A stretch of DNA of 64,000 nt. Origin: Eledone cirrhosa (lineage: Eukaryota). The stretch is taken from the NCBI GenBank assembly GCA_964016885.1, contig OZ024741.1:288982001-289046000 (forward strand). The letters run 5' to 3'. Both the position numbers and the translations under genes were made by a program. Each line of letters starts with the position of its first letter. The stretch's first letter is position 1. This document shows positions 494-46,380 of the stretch, in pieces. The notes beneath the pieces are model-generated. The model was not told the DNA's origin. It was given only the letters and a program-made list of their open reading frames with translations, and made no database searches.

Positions 494-550
494 TTATTAT
501 CTCCGATGAATTTGGCCTTGTGCTCGGATGAAACGATCGTCAGTTATTAA
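494..550 (+). ncRNA. Degenerate minimal type I hammerhead ribozyme motif
   Basis: CCGATGA core (503-509, U4>C). Stem II atttgg/tcggat. GAAAC-GATC-GTC with palindromic stem III ACGATCGT. Stem I ttattatct/agttattaa pairs at 7 of 9 positions. Confidence 0.55.
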
Positions 551-892
551 ACGTTTGAAGGATTAAACACTTTTTGATTATCATTTACATTCTGTGTGTG
601 TATATATATATATATATATATATATATATATACAGTCAGCGATAAAACATGAGGAAAAGGGATAAGAGAAAGAAAGAAATATAAAGAATAGATTAAATGA
701 AATTCTAAATTTTTAGAGAGATTTAATCTCAGATAAACAGCTGAACGACTCAAAAGATTGCCATTCTGTGCAGTAAATATACCATATCTGTTAGACACGC
801 AATGACTAACAACAGAATGTTTTAAGTCTGCGTGTCTGACATATATGCGTAGCTTGTGAATAAAAAATTCAAGCGGTGTCGCTGGCCGTGGT

Positions 893-1122
893 GATCACGT
901 CTTATTGGCTAATTTCATCGTCTTATTGGCTAATGAACCAACGAGAGTAATTGTTGCTCAAAGGCATCCGCCATTTTGTTTGCACGTTTATTTATCGTTT
1001 CACTTTCGAATCTTCCTCCTGTACTTCGTCGTTTATCATCAAACTATTTTTCTCGTTATGGTAAGTTATATTGTTAATTTATATATGATTCTTAAAATTT
1101 ATATTAACTATTTTTTTTTCAG
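893..1122 (+). promoter_or_regulatory. Promoter-like segment followed by ATG and a 62-nt GT-AG intron (probably a PLE leader)
   Basis: Two tandem cgtcttattggctaat (reverse CCAAT) motifs and CCGCCATTTT (YY1-like, ~968). ATG 1058-1060 is directly followed by GTAAGT (1061) ... ttaac ... tttttttttcAG (1122). Confidence 0.4.
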
Positions 1123-1510
1123 TTCGTTATAACAAGCTTATAATATTGGTTGTATCATATTTACTTGTATATTTGCCCATATTATTGTTCGTTTTATGTT
1201 AGATTATTTTATTATTATTATTATGTTAGATTATTTTTTTATTATTATGTTAGACTATTTGTATTTAATATTTAATTTTTATTAATTCAACTATAACAAT
1301 TATTATGTAAAATATATTTATTTAATATTGATTGTTTTTTGTAGTTGCTTATATTAAAAGTCTAAAAATATTTTTATACATCTTACAATAATATTTATAA
1401 GATCATTTATAAAATAACAATTATATAATCTAATTACATTACAACGATAATTTATTATTAATATATATCATGTTTAACTAGAGTTATTACAAGCGTTGCT
1501 TTAAAAAAAA

Positions 1511-1968
1511 TATTAAACTAGACCTGAAAAATGCGCAAGCTCAAAAGAGCCACAGAATGTTATAATAAACCTTTAAAAGTGTGGGTGGGACTATAGTTGT
1601 TGCTCAAAAATATTGTAATCATTATCTACGTACACTCTGTGGCATCCTTTTATAAAAAAGAGACACATAACGAACTCAAGACGACACGATAATTATTTAA
1701 GTGAATTTATAATATAGAATTCGGTTTAAGTGCATTTCGTATTAATCATTACTAAACATCTAATATGAGATATTGAACATTAGCTTAAATAATTATCGTG
1801 TCGTCTTGAGTTCATTATGAGTCTCTTTTTTATAAAAGGATGCCACAGAGTGTACGTAGATAATGATTACAATATTTTTGAACAACAACTCTAGTCTCAC
1901 ACTTTTGAAGGTTTATTATAACGTTTTGTAGCTCTTTTGAGCTTGCGCATTTTTCAGGTCTAGTAATA
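1511..1968. repeat. Long inverted repeat (arms ~1511-1702 and ~1783-1968)
   Basis: actagacctgaaaaatgcgcaagctc...gacgacacgataattatttaag is the reverse complement of cttaaataattatcgtgtcgtc...gagcttgcgcatttttcaggtctagt, with scattered mismatches. Confidence 0.9.
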
Positions 1969-42329: not shown

Positions 42330-42872
42330 TCGTGAGGTTAAGGGCTTTGATTCTGAGGTTATGGGTTTTAAGTAGGGTTTTAGGCTTTGGTTGTGGGTTT
42401 TATTTGGGGTTATGGGCATTGGTTGGGATTATAGACATTGGTTGTGTGGTTATGGGCTTTGGAGGGACATTGGTTGTGGGGTTATGGGCATTGGTTGGGA
42501 TTATAGACATTGGTTGTGTGGTTATGGGCTTTGGAGGGACATTGGTTGTGGGGTTATGCGCATTGGTTATGGGGTTATAGGCTTTGGATGTGGGGTCTTG
42601 TACATTGGTTGTGGGCTTATGGGGTTTGGATGTGGGGTTTTGTACATTGGCTTTGGAGTTATGGGCTTTGAATGTGGGGTTATAGGCTTTGGATGTGGGG
42701 TTATGGGGTTTGGATGTGGGGTTATGGAGTTTGGATGTGGGGTTTTGTACATTGGTTGTGGGGTTTTGTACATTGGTTGTGGGGTTATGGGCTTTTGTAC
42801 ATTGGTTATGGGGTTATGGGGTTTGGATGTGGGGTTGTGAAGTTTGGTTAGGTTTATGGGCTTGGTTGGGGC
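42330..42872 (-). repeat. Degenerate 21-bp minisatellite (minus strand reads KPITPHP-like heptads)
   Basis: ggatgtggggttatggg(g/c)ttt and ggttgtgggggttttgtacatt variants. Confidence 0.85.
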
Positions 42873-42957
42873 TAAACATCCACTACCAATCTACCTATAT
42901 CTAGGCTACGTGCCAGATATTGTGGGCTGATAATAGCTGTTTAGCCCAGGATCAGCC

Positions 42958-43960
42958 TTGAGTATTATTATTACCAACACTGCTACTGCTACTACTACCA
43001 TCACAACAACAACAATAACAACCAAGAAAAACAACGACAACATCAACAGCCTCAATATAAACACTAATAACGGTAGCAGCAGCAGCAACAACAAACAAAA
43101 CAACAACAACAACAACAACAACAACAACAACAACAACAACAACAACAACAACAACACCACCACCACCACCACCACCACCACCAAGAGCAACAAGCTGAAC
43201 GGCAACGCCACATTCGCGGTGGCGGCGGCGAAAACAAAGCGTTTTTTTAACGTTGACATAAGAGACAAGGAGCGACAGTTGGCTTAGGCGTAGAATCTAA
43301 TTAACCGCGTGAAGTCCTGGGCCAAAACCTAACCATCCCAGACGAGGCAATAGCAGCCATGCAAGGGAGGACGGTGTACTTTCGATGCATTTCAGTGCAG
43401 ACGTGCAAAGTGGAACTCGCCAGCCAAGCAGAAGTCGAGGCTGCTTTAAAGTGCATCGGAAGTGACATCGAGTACAAAGCAAGGACCAAGCAGTTCGGGT
43501 ACCACCTCGGTACTGTTCGAAACCGAAACCCTTGTTATTAAGCACCCCTACAGAACAGAACGCATCATTATGCACTCGTCCTACACGGACAAAAGAACAG
43601 CAAAGGTCCGCATTCCTAGGATCCCACCAGGAATGAACATATGGTGACTCCTGGTATGCGTAATTGAGGAGGGCACAGACACTACCTTCGTAGATATTAA
43701 AAAAGACTGACAGAGAGGACTGGTCCGGGATGGGTTTGGAGATTCTTCTCCAAACAAAACCAGAAGACCTCAACAACATCCCGCATTTTGCCAGCCTGCA
43801 TGACGGACAACGATTCAATTAATCACTGAGGGGGAATAAAGCCGCACTGCTTCGTCTGCGGAGGAAGCAGCGAATCTGCAAACGGTAAACAACGTACAGG
43901 TCAAAAGTTCAAAAATAGCCACTGCATCTCCCACCACGACGACTACTACTACTACCACCA
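42958..43960 (+). mobile_element. Degenerate ORF1 of a Tx1/L1-related element (N/T-rich head, RRM-like region, CxxC)
   Basis: RTVYFRCI..SQAEVEAAL..DIEY, YTDKRTAKVRI, DWSGMGLE..IP..IQLITEG..HCFVCG align by eye to ORF1 at 51455 and 56767. Confidence 0.7.
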
Positions 43961-44674
43961 CAGGCATGTCTGTCGTCCACTCCACTGAATGTAAAAGCAA
44001 AACACAAGTTGAAAACCAGCATTAACACTTTATGGAATCGCTCCCGTAAGTTTTTGATTTTTTACATATTTAAAACAATTGTGATAGAATAATACTTATT
44101 ACAAATGAAACGTAAGATATCAGTCTTAACTCTCAGGAAGTGGCAACGCATCACATTGCGGCATAGGGATCCAATATGTAATATTTAATTTTGTACCAGA
44201 AATCTTATAGTCAGAAACGAAAATGGCTAGAAAATAACAGCCAAATAACTTCACCACCAGCACCAGCACCGCCGCCGCCACCATCACCACTACCACAAAA
44301 AAATCTAGCCAAATACAGACCATCACACCATCACCATCCCTATGGTGCTGCTGTCCCATCACCACCGCCGCCGCTGCCGCCACTGTTCCCTCACTGCACT
44401 AGAGAGGGGTGGTGATGCCGCTATGCATGAAGGGAAGCGAGCAAGATATAAATAGACTGGGTTAGTGACTCGGTTAAACAGCTAACAACAACAACAACAA
44501 CAACAACACCAAAATAATTATCTTGTTGAATTTCTAAACTCTCTCAAAATGTTTTATTTTAAACGCTGTCAAATCTAATTGTTTTGAAAAAGACAAATTA
44601 AAGGATAGGCGCTACAAAGAAAGTTTTAAGCGGTACTCTGACCAACTCCAAACATCACTGGTGACAACCCGCTA

Positions 44675-46380
44675 TATGAAAGATCATAAATCTAACTTTA
44701 ACTCTAATCCTTCTATAAGGCTTATATGCCCTTCCAAATCTGATATTGGAATCATTAGTAAACATTTTTTAGATAGAGTCATTCCACAACTAAGAAAACA
44801 TGTTAATTTACCACTCTGGGAAAACACATCCCAGGTAATTAACTGGTTTAATAATAAATCCTCTGCTTCATTTCTACAATTTGATATAGATAATTATTAT
44901 TCTTCTATATCACCTATACTCCTGAACAAAGCCTTGATATTTGCTAAAAATAGATCTAACTTAACTTTGGATGACATTAATATTATTACACATGCTAGAC
45001 TAACACTATTGGAATTTCAAAATGAATACTGGACCAGAAACACATATAGTAATCTATTCGATATTACTATGGGCTCAAGCGATTCTGCCCAAATTACTGA
45101 TCTTCTGGGCCTCTTTCCGCCAAACCACAAATACCATCAAATTTTAAATAGATCAACGGTTAAATTCCCCTACTCAACAACCAAAAACATAAAACAAATA
45201 TAAGTGCCTACAATGCATATAAATGTAAAAAAACCATGAGTATACCACCAGTACATCAAACTAACCATAATATCTCCTCAGATACAGGATTCACGAAAAG
45301 TTGTAACTGTAGAAACAAGGCAAACTGCCCATTAAAAGGAAATTGCCTTATTAATAACATAGTATATAAATGTAAAGTTAACACTAAGGACTCAATTTAT
45401 TCATATATAGGAGCTACCTCTAACAAATTTAAGGTAAGATTTAATACCCACAAACATAGTTTTAAAAATGCCGCACTAGCTAATACAACATCTCTAGCTG
45501 AAATAATTAATAATTATAGAAAGAGGAATATAGATTATGACCTGACCTGGAGTGTGCTCAAAAGGGCCACCCCTTATCAAAATAATAGATATGAATGTAG
45601 ATTATGTTCCCTAAATTAAATTATATTCTTTTCATAGATGTATTTTTTTCACTAACACTCTTATCGTAAAATTTTAGTCTCCTTAGATATTTGCATTAGC
45701 ATTACTATTTTATAACAGCAACTGTTCGTATACTTTTTACTGACCTGACCTATTTTCACCCCTAAAATAACCTTCTCATTCTTCACACTCCATTCAAAAC
45801 TGAAATCTGCCTTCTTCTACCCCTAAAATAAACTTCAATTACTACTATTTTACCATTTGGCCAATTATTAACTTTCTATTGGTTAATTCTAAACCTGTTA
45901 CCAAACAGACAGACTATATTAGATCTTTGTTGGTTTATTCAATGAACAAATATAATTATTTCTGAGGTCAGCATACGACCTATTTTCATCCCTAAAATAA
46001 TCTTTCATTCATAATATTCTTTTCCATCCAAAACTGAAATCTACCTTCCTCTACCCATAATTTAAGGTTCTTTTACTACTATATTACTATCTTGACCTTC
46101 ACTATCTTTCTATTGGTCAATTCAAAACCTGTTCCCAAACAGACCTATTGTATTAAATCTTTTTTTTTTTTTTTTTTTTTTTTTTTTCAATAAACAAATA
46201 TCATTATTTCTGAAGACAGCATATATATGTGTAGGTATGTATATTCTCTGATAGTTTGTATAAATATTTTACATAGATCTATAGAATATGCATACCAACA
46301 CTAACACATATATATATCCTAGAAACGATCGTAAAATGATGAATTTTTTTAATATAAGGAACTGTTTCTTTGTTTATTCA
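44675..46380 (+). mobile_element. Internally deleted AT-rich Hydra-like PLE with duplicated 3' region and HHR
   Basis: KDHKSNF, FDITMGSSDSAQ, then a jump to FPPNHKYH, CNCRNKANC, IVY..YIG, CRLC. Diverged direct repeat ~45747-45976 / 45977-46223. Confidence 0.85.
46201..46342 (+). ncRNA. Hammerhead ribozyme with extended stem II
   Basis: tcattattt CTGAAGA [105 nt: atatatatgtgt/acacatatatat and ggtatgtatattct/agaatatgcatacc] GAAAC gatc GTA aaatgatga. 9-bp stem I. Confidence 0.72.

What the first reader, a model, noticed from the sequence alone, without database searches (positions are those of the whole stretch)
494..46342. About ten unrelated minimal hammerhead ribozymes in 46 kb, several in small ORF-less tandem/inverted units (retrozyme-like system)
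Seen: HHR-shaped motifs at 494(+), 5125(+)/4730(-), 13005(+), 19169(+), 28359(-), 29782(-), 30600(+), 31062(+), 32144(-), 46201(+), plus worn ones at ~100(-) and ~31345(+). Their stems are unrelated but the core order is the same, and stem III is very short and often palindromic (ACGATCGT, ACTAGT, ACAATTGT). Only two sit beside a PLE ORF. Three lie in ORF-less units of 317, 410 and ~548 bp sharing one layout: inverted 5' piece, partial tandem repeat, near (TA)n or (CA)n. Established: PLE pseudo-LTRs carry minimal type I HHRs, and metazoan non-LTR retrozymes yield small circular RNAs. Inference: this genome hosts many non-autonomous HHR mini-element families mobilised by PLE RT, some possibly making circRNAs.
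Basis: partly seen in the sequence, partly recalled or inferred. Interest (0 to 1): 0.8.

Follow-up and report, generated by a model that had tools for sequence, protein, structure and literature searches.

The report
Rearranged hammerhead ribozyme in animal retroelements
The hammerhead-shaped motifs are real tails of Penelope-type jumping genes and their non-coding passengers, and one of them is a hammerhead with its three parts in a rearranged, knotted order, present about 18,000 times in this animal genome and seemingly in Naiad retroelements thought to lack the ribozyme; it is predicted, not shown, to cut itself.

Summary
The 13 sites are real (11 insertions, 10 families), but their density is normal for this 3-Gb genome: about one hammerhead shape per 16 kb. 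Four sites are 3' ends of ORF-bearing Penelope-like elements (PLEs). The 317-, 410- and 547-bp units are genome-wide, ORF-less, (TA)n-inserted families. That much is known biology: non-LTR retrozymes as non-autonomous PLEs. The scan noted similar cases in other genomes.

The new point is the motif at 4730/5125. It is not a worn type I hammerhead. Its blocks run site, G-box, C-box: the non-circular 'SGC' order, so far reported from metatranscriptomes rather than from genomes of known organisms. Six helices covary across eight subfamilies (95% of cells paired; 14 of 30 pairs change on both sides). An exact pattern matches 17,979 times against 0 for the control. By eye, the same fold ends published Naiad PLE consensus sequences from corals to octopuses, a clade described as lacking canonical hammerheads. 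Four literature searches and the scan's notes showed no report of this.

Cleavage, circular RNA and the mobilising enzyme are untested.

The parts
4742..4846 (-). Only complete copy in the window of the permuted (S-G-C order) hammerhead-like motif. Helix e 4845-4842 with 4746-4743; hairpin h 4840-4834 with 4827-4821; stem II 4818-4814 with 4787-4783 (one mismatch in this copy); helix b 4813-4808 with 4767-4762; stem III 4803-4799 with 4778-4774; predicted cut after 4798; stem I 4797-4793 with 4759-4755; G-box 4781-4778; C-box 4754-4748
   Evidence: Sequence read; descriptor hit; covariation
4715..5676 (+). 547-bp ORF-less unit: inverted arm 4715-5036, monomer 5043-5589, partial repeat 5590-5676 that ends where LINE-like sequence begins. 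The second motif copy (C-box 5128-5134) lacks the 5' strand of helix e; the third stops just before its C-box
30777..31232 (+). 317-bp ORF-less unit (short inverted piece, partial repeat, monomer 30916-31232, then (TA)n) with a canonical type I hammerhead (core at 31066, U3-A8 variant, long stem I); very young family with arrays of up to 13 units
   Evidence: (Rfam HH9, 31.1 bits, below gathering score 52)
18773..19419 (+). 410-bp ORF-less unit with a minimal type I hammerhead (core at 19175). The family consensus has a palindromic stem III; the window copy has U16.1 changed
29751..30692 (-). 3' end with 5' inversion of a Hydra-like autonomous PLE with a 3' UTR of about 2 kb; hammerhead cores at 29827(-) and 30607(+)
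   Evidence: homology runs from the motif to RT/EN sequence in 3 of 6 extended loci
44538..46411 (+). Hydra-like PLE remnant (RT, CxCX5C linker, C-terminal GIY-YIG) whose 3' end carries a type I hammerhead with a stem II domain of about 105 nt (46202-46341)
11493..13130 (+). Neptune-like PLE (label from my reading of its motifs), 5'-truncated, with a minimal hammerhead (core at 13009) about 200 bp after the ORF; very abundant, fairly young family
466..596 (+). 131-bp 3' stub of a longer element (homology extends 0.7-0.9 kb in relatives) with a type I motif (core at 503); position 4 is C in 11 of 13 relatives; no ORF link shown
46..132 (-). Worn copy of an old short family with a type I motif (core at 130); intact copies occur elsewhere
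31298..31488 (+). Second, fold-back copy of the same old family (core near 31344)
28275..28470 (-). Worn 3' stub of an old family (74-80% identity) whose relatives carry a minimal type I motif (core at 28390)
32113..32190 (-). 80-bp stub with a type I motif (core at 32178), palindromic stem III and a very short stem II; two relatives seen in the 600-kb sample
8936..11039 (+). Second Hydra-like PLE ORF remnant; no hammerhead seen at its end, which abuts the inverted 5' part of the Neptune-like copy

Best explanation
The window is an ordinary sample of a PLE-rich animal genome, and its 547-bp unit carries a conserved, knotted RNA fold that is likely a self-cleaving hammerhead wired in the non-circular site/G-box/C-box order and likely inherited from Naiad-type PLEs.

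Shown. In 5'-to-3' order the unit has: helix e 5' strand, hairpin h, the 10.x strand of stem II, bridging helix b, stem III strand, U16.1-H17, stem I strand, a 5-nt linker, the 11.x strand of stem II, the G12-A15.1 box, the other stem III strand, b partner, stem I partner, the C3-A9 box, and e partner. All six helices covary. The clan has about 18,000 pattern-perfect copies in units of 466-637 bp that end on dinucleotide repeats.

Inferred. Helices e and h are an insertion between A9 and position 10.1, and b does the job of the loop I-loop II contact. Transcripts of partial tandems would be cut after H17 once the last-made C-box has folded in, releasing unit-length RNA that may be ligated to circles. 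A (TA)n-targeting PLE protein would nick the microsatellite and start reverse transcription inside the RNA, 16-130 nt past the motif, giving partial tandems, 5' truncations and inversions. The Naiad copies sampled here are decayed, so the helper is more likely the abundant Neptune-like or Hydra-like family.

The 317 and 410 units are conventional retrozymes using the same route. The other sites are PLE tails.
For: Covariation on 27 copies in 8 subfamilies (pairwise identity down to 49%, mean 69%): 95.2% of 809 cells paired, 14 of 30 pairs and 78 cells changed on both sides, every helix with at least one such pair. Shuffles reaching these values: 0/500, 1/500, 0/500; slid controls pair 21-48%. 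The 5' strands of all helices and the cleavage site were not in the search pattern, yet U16.1 is kept in 26 of 27 and H17 is A or C in 27 of 27. 17,979 exact pattern matches against 0 for the reversed control. None of 43 copies has a G-box downstream of the C-box, and a pattern demanding one has 0 matches. A second organism holds the motif in 401 and 423 contigs of two runs of one sample, with no variant listed in either box and both partners of one hairpin pair changed in about 80% of depth. The same fold, read by eye, ends Naiad consensus sequences in the supplement of PMC8557442: two octopus, three Acropora, and four entries in parts 9, 12 (two) and 19, with unrelated stem sequences and a G-C pair at 10.1-11.1. 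Type-SGC hammerheads cleave in vitro and need the same stems I, II, III and bridging helix (PMC10085705). PLE marks: a dinucleotide run within 170 nt of the motif in 22 of 30 loci taken in genome order; clustered 3' ends.
Against: No cleavage or RNA data; no run on record as RNA was listed for the 317 unit and the 547 unit could not be searched. Eckert et al. assume block C cannot be interrupted; here it is. In this clan the 10.1-11.1 position is often not a standard pair, and one stem II pair fails in 11 of 27. Nested-only folding gives stem II in 4 of 27 and stem I in 1 of 27, so these rest on covariation alone. One of five measures (further pair types) did not beat shuffles (458/500), and copies are related, so cell counts overstate independent events. 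Box conservation in the alignment is built in by the pattern. The Naiad reading is by eye and not exhaustive; nematode Naiads show the ordinary order, and I saw no motif in bivalve entries. No ORF-linked copy was found in 50 loci or at the ends of 13 decayed Naiad copies. Only 1 of 9 frog retrozyme dimers cleaved, and cleavage was not needed for Anolis PLE insertion in vitro.
Confidence: 0.7

Rival explanations
1. The knotted fold is real but is mainly a binding or priming signal for the PLE reverse transcriptase. It descends from a hammerhead and cuts poorly or only with protein help.
For: The Anolis PLE hammerhead looked protein-assisted and dispensable for insertion in vitro. PLE minimal hammerheads cleave weakly. 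The base of stem II is often mismatched in this clan. 3' ends sit at fixed distances from the motif.
Against: U16.1, H17 (never G) and the exact spacing of the boxes against stems I and III are kept across subfamilies and across Naiads of several phyla, which is what catalysis needs.
Confidence: 0.18
2. One reading: the motifs are all minimal type I hammerheads of independent retrozyme-like mini-elements, and 4730/5125 is a decayed type I copy.
For: Holds for the 410 unit and roughly for the 317 unit. A small local hairpin follows the C-box in the window's subfamily.
Against: The downstream G-box is absent from 43 of 43 copies and genome-wide; the local hairpin is missing in other subfamilies. 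Four sites belong to ORF-bearing PLEs.
Confidence: 0.05
3. The ORF-less units are solo pseudo-LTRs of autonomous PLEs, multiplied into tandems by DNA-level slippage or unequal exchange, with no RNA life of their own.
For: Li et al. favour local DNA amplification. Nine variants are shared by only some units in 6 of 31 arrays, one with a three-unit period.
Against: Units recur at constant length at hundreds to thousands of dispersed sites with fresh 5' inversions (26 of 32 loci for 317). Insertion-private variants are fixed across both inverted arms in 3 arrays. No contiguous ORF in 72 loci.
Confidence: 0.05
4. The six-helix reading is an over-fit to related repeat copies.
For: The structure was derived from these sequences; the tool warns that related sequences can beat shuffles. 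A 27-bp satellite also passes my loose permuted descriptor.
Against: Compensatory changes in all six helices at identities down to 49%, and the same wiring with unrelated stems in Naiads of distant animals.
Confidence: 0.02

Closest known systems
Type-SGC (HRIMA-1) non-circularly permuted hammerheads, Eckert et al. 2023 (PMC10085705; abstract, passages and sections 4, 13, 14, 15, 18 part 1 read; figures and supplements not seen)
   Same: Block order site, G-box, C-box; stem I joined to stem II by a short linker; a fourth helix bridging stems I and II; full core.
   Different: Here block C is split: the 10.x strand lies 5', and two extra helices (e, h) sit between A9 and 10.1. It occurs in animal genomic retroelements in about 18,000 copies, whereas that paper found its motifs in no genome of a known organism except one GCS candidate. 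Cleavage untested.
Naiad clade PLEs, Craig et al. 2021 (PMC8557442; passages, section 11, supplement parts 1 and 24 and motif look-ups read)
   Same: (TA)n targets, tandem/inverted insertions, and by eye the same 3' fold; octopus Naiads share loop and linker features with the 547 clan.
   Different: The paper reports no canonical hammerhead and lists only 'HHR_core' or 'HHR_half_core'. The 547 clan has no ORF, and no Naiad parent was found in this genome.
Metazoan non-LTR retrozymes, Cervera and de la Pena 2020 (PMC7229834; passages read) and Li, Clavereau and Pollet 2026 (10.64898/2026.07.22.740005; parts 1-3 of 5 read)
   Same: ORF-less tandem monomers of low GC (35, 37, 43%) with a hammerhead per unit; proposed PLE dependence. 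The 317 and 410 units fit.
   Different: The 547 clan has a permuted, not type I, motif. The genomic copies here show PLE 5' inversions and (TA)n ends directly. Circular RNA is not shown.
Minimal hammerheads of PLE pseudo-LTRs, Cervera and de la Pena 2014 (PMC4209133; parts 1-2 of 4 read)
   Same: Thousands of dispersed motifs in families, close pairs on opposite strands, palindromic stem III, U3-A8 variant, extra base between 9 and 10.1.
   Different: Estimated count here is far larger (about 185,000; 115,000-265,000) with a looser descriptor, so not directly comparable; a 105-nt stem II form and a U4C form occur as family traits.

Membership tests
Type-SGC hammerhead (547 motif) | Blocks in the order site, G-box, C-box | tested here: met
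Type-SGC hammerhead (547 motif) | All core nucleotides kept | tested here: met
   U16.1 in 26 of 27, H17 A or C in 27 of 27; the two boxes were required by the search pattern
Type-SGC hammerhead (547 motif) | Stems I, II, III and the bridging helix supported by covariation | tested here: met
   Pairs changed on both sides: stem I 3 of 5, stem II 2 of 5, stem III 2 of 5, bridge 3 of 4
Type-SGC hammerhead (547 motif) | C-box directly followed by its stem II strand (block C uninterrupted) | tested here: not met
   The strand after the C-box pairs with a 5' strand (helix e); the stem II partner lies upstream. So it works like SGC but is not filed as SGC.
Type-SGC hammerhead (547 motif) | Self-cleavage at H17 | not testable with these tools
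   Needs an in vitro assay
Non-autonomous Naiad derivative (547 clan) | Same 3' RNA fold as Naiads | tested here: met
   By-eye pairing of supplement sequences; no alignment or statistic could be run on them
Non-autonomous Naiad derivative (547 clan) | Sequence homology to the 3' end of an autonomous Naiad in the same genome | tested here: inconclusive
   Only stop-riddled Naiad remnants found; their 3' ends gave no motif
Non-LTR retrozyme | ORF-less tandem monomer of low GC | tested here: met
   317, 410, 547 units
Non-LTR retrozyme | Type I hammerhead in each unit (317 and 410 units) | tested here: met
   317: no core change among 135 variants in 107 units; sister subfamily swaps U3-A8 for C3-G8 with compensated stems in 30 of 30 motif rows. 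410: full consensus in 16 of 26 rows, 2 of them unrelated matches
Non-LTR retrozyme | Type I hammerhead in each unit (547 unit) | tested here: not met
   Permuted motif instead
Non-LTR retrozyme | Expressed as self-cleaved linear and circular RNA | not testable with these tools
   No RNA holder listed
Hydra clade PLE (8936, 44538, 29751 families) | C-terminal GIY-YIG, CxCX5C linker, DKT motif, (TA)n target | tested here: met
   Motifs read in translations against the clade description; Pfam gave no hit
Hydra clade PLE (8936, 44538, 29751 families) | Placement in the RT phylogeny | not tested
Neptune clade PLE (11493) | CX2-5CxxC linker and CCHH motif in a C-terminal GIY-YIG | tested here: inconclusive
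   C-terminal GIY-YIG and a CxxC seen; full linker not confirmed; no tree

The most novel reading that the evidence does not exclude
A non-circularly permuted hammerhead with a split C block is an old, catalytically active part of Naiad Penelope-like retrotransposons across several animal phyla, missed by all type I-III descriptors. In this genome it has been captured by a clan of non-coding passengers with at least 18,000 copies that outlived their Naiad parents by using other PLE enzymes. This would be the first non-circularly permuted ribozyme family in cellular genomes and would overturn the view that Naiads manage without a hammerhead.
Probability: 0.6. Interest if true: 0.9.

Novelty: new variant of a known kind. 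Interest (0 to 1): 0.82.

Why it matters
Non-circular RNA permutations were known only from virus-like metatranscriptome RNAs. Finding one in animal retrotransposons gives it a host, a likely role and thousands of natural variants for structure work. It bears on an open question in PLE biology: whether hammerheads are functional parts or parasites. The argument that Naiads thrive without them (PMC8557442) would fall. It also implies that genome-wide ribozyme counts miss a whole topology. The test is cheap: a 105-nt RNA with a predicted cut site and six predicted helices.

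Tried and rejected
Rfam: no hammerhead family at gathering score. The only listed hammerhead match was HH9 at 31047-31124 (31.1 bits; 150 of 278 rows shown), and there was none on the 547 unit. My first reading of 4730/5125 as a dead type I motif was dropped.

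An idea that array length tracks ribozyme quality was dropped: the canonical-core sister family shows at most about two units, and top-40 sampling favours long arrays in the youngest family.

Rolling-circle versus linear template for 317 arrays is undecided: both array-wide private variants and mosaic variants occur.

Sequencing runs: no RNA holder listed. One run holds the 317 unit as a single 347-letter circular contig at depth 2.7, run kind unknown, which tandem DNA would also give.

Metagenome scan: 10 pattern hits, none with the helices. The octopus Naiad motif pattern and one Naiad RT pattern had 0 matches in this genome; a second RT pattern gave 3 against 3 for its control, though the hits translate as Naiad-like remnants. 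Two 2.9-kb spacings between motifs proved to be other sequence between clan copies, not a Naiad ORF. The search aimed at the 32144 site returned only a neighbouring family in its top 40. No homology between the three units and the fetched PLE 3' ends beyond co-located copies (output partly cut). A formal pair count for the 317 clan was not completed because the alignment was off by one column. Lunse et al. 2017 was not held and is recalled only. Forgia et al. 2023 and PMC13725137 passages described no such fold.

Full report
Setting. The window lies on a 416-Mb contig of a 3.0-Gb genome, is 37.7% GC and rich in microsatellites. The best named homologue of its main PLE protein is from an octopus (66%), so the host is probably a cephalopod (inference).

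Checking the observation. All 13 sites are present. A type I descriptor finds 4 perfect-core motifs at score >=10 against 0.07 in 60 shuffles. Self-comparison reduces the sites to 11 insertions of 10 families and confirms periods of 317, 410 and 547 bp. The density is not special: 60 evenly spaced 10-kb samples give 37 such motifs against 0.5 in shuffles, in 22 of 60 samples and 16 clusters. That extrapolates to about 185,000 (115,000-265,000) genome-wide. The descriptor is looser than published ones, so this number should not be set against published counts without care.

PLE tails. The 13009 motif follows a Neptune-like ORF whose family has 43,610 candidate places, the best 96 at 93-97% identity apart from the window's own copy. 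The 46201 motif ends a Hydra-like PLE and keeps a stem II domain of about 105 nt in 15 of 15 loci. The inverted pair at 29827/30607 is the truncated end of another Hydra-like element; homology runs on to RT/EN sequence in 3 of 6 extended loci. The 494, 28359, 32144 and 100/31345 sites are short stubs of older families. This pattern is described in PMC4209133.

Conventional retrozymes. The 317 unit is very young: 978 candidates, 99-100% identity among the best, arrays of up to 13 units, and 0.18% private divergence in 107 units from 31 insertions chosen among the top hits. Both orientations occur in 26 of 32 loci, and 53 of 55 3' ends lie on dinucleotide runs at three clustered positions. Its hammerhead is canonical with a U3-A8 pair. 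A sister subfamily (2442 candidates) has C3-G8 and different but paired stems I-III in 30 of 30 motif rows, which indicates selection on the fold. The 410 unit (2049 candidates, 94-97%) has a minimal motif with a palindromic stem III. No PLE ORF is contiguous with these units in 32 and 20 loci. These match non-LTR retrozymes (PMC7229834), now argued to be non-autonomous PLEs (preprint).

The 547 unit. All 43 copies examined lack a G-box after the C-box, and a pattern demanding one has no match in the genome. Relatives showed a conserved G-box 23 nt upstream instead. A pattern for that arrangement matches 17,979 times, control 0. The first 30 matches in genome order include tandem periods of 466-637 bp, 22 of 30 end on a dinucleotide run within 170 nt, and none has an upstream RT; 20 longer regions also showed none. 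From 66 distinct copies I aligned 27 chosen for diversity and an intact 5' side; copies truncated or inverted within the motif were left out. Six helices hold: 95.2% of cells paired, 14 of 30 pairs changed on both sides, over 8 subfamilies with identity down to 49%. They place U16.1-H17 between stems III and I, the G-box between stems II and III, and the C-box after stem I. This is the hammerhead core with its blocks in the order site, G, C.

Weak points. The structure was derived from these sequences and the copies are related. One of five measures did not beat shuffles. Stems I and II are not predicted by nested folding. The base of stem II is often mismatched.

Comparison. Eckert et al. (PMC10085705) named this order type SGC, showed cleavage, described a short stem I-II linker and a bridging helix, and found such RNAs in no genome of a known organism apart from one GCS candidate. 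The motif here has the same order, linker and bridge. It differs in that the C-box is followed by helix e, and the 10.x strand of stem II comes from upstream. I read this as two helices inserted between A9 and 10.1, a position where PLE hammerheads already carry an extra base, with the RNA's ends in helix e (inference).

Link to Naiads. Craig et al. state that Naiads lack canonical hammerheads and flag some as 'core' or 'half core'. In their consensus file I could pair the same six helices by eye at the 3' ends of Naiad_Obim and Naiad_Ovul, of three near-identical Acropora entries, and of four entries whose names were outside the passages shown (parts 9, 12, 12, 19). Naiad_Bfor, one entry in part 17 and one in part 25 fit partly. 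Nematode entries have the ordinary order. I saw places 1-56 of 62 for one C-box spelling and places 5-22 for three others, and line breaks hide some, so this is not a census of the 54 entries. In this genome I found only decayed Naiad copies and no motif at their ends. Descent of the clan from Naiads therefore rests on the shared fold. Clan copies at 84-98% identity look younger than the remnants at 65-86%, which suggests another helper (inference). A second organism carries the clan with a paired change in hairpin h.

Is it in print? Searches of the open library returned no paper describing a permuted hammerhead in PLEs or animal genomes; search 41 none on octopus hammerheads. Subscription papers are not covered. 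The scan's own notes hold similar retrozyme and PLE-tail cases in other genomes and nothing on this fold.

Mechanism. Shown: the anatomy, covariation, copy number, PLE-type insertion marks. Inferred: self-cleavage after H17 (about 0.7), unit-length and possibly circular RNA (about 0.45), mobilisation by a (TA)n-targeting PLE protein with internal priming as in PMC11167929 (about 0.85; that paper found initiation without homology to the target and cleavage dispensable in vitro).

Verdict. Inside it is a new hammerhead variant that deserves a bench test. Interest 0.82; new variant of a known kind.

Noticed in passing
   Followed up: partly
window 13506-13666, 14040-14090 and 18123-18272: A common (TA)n-ending family whose relatives (L259, L282, L293) show a hammerhead-like motif with A at position 4 in all three copies.
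   Followed up: no
window 46202-46341: Family-wide stem II domain of about 105 nt with a C-A mismatch at its base, the same mismatch as in the 410 family; activity unknown.
   Followed up: partly
L167 (G000:C4:358176000-358179800): A 317 array at the centre of an inverted duplication that includes the flanking PLE sequence on both sides.
   Followed up: no
L033, L059 (period about 310 bp): A tandem unit related to the 317 body but carrying a different hammerhead, resembling that of the 100/31345 family; suggests ribozyme swapping between mini-elements.
   Followed up: no
window 1510-1969 and 13212-14015: Long inverted-repeat elements (a 460-bp palindrome; 284-bp arms around a (TA)n core) with no hammerhead found.
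   Followed up: no
window 19580-21400: A near-identical duplicated low-complexity block of 968 bp period flanking the 200-base N gap; possibly an assembly artefact.
   Followed up: no
window 59081-61078: A 665-aa open frame with internal repeats and no Pfam hit, possibly a large host exon.
   Followed up: no
L188:4070-5000 and L282:7700-8300: A 27-bp satellite that passes loose hammerhead descriptors; a false-positive source.
   Followed up: no
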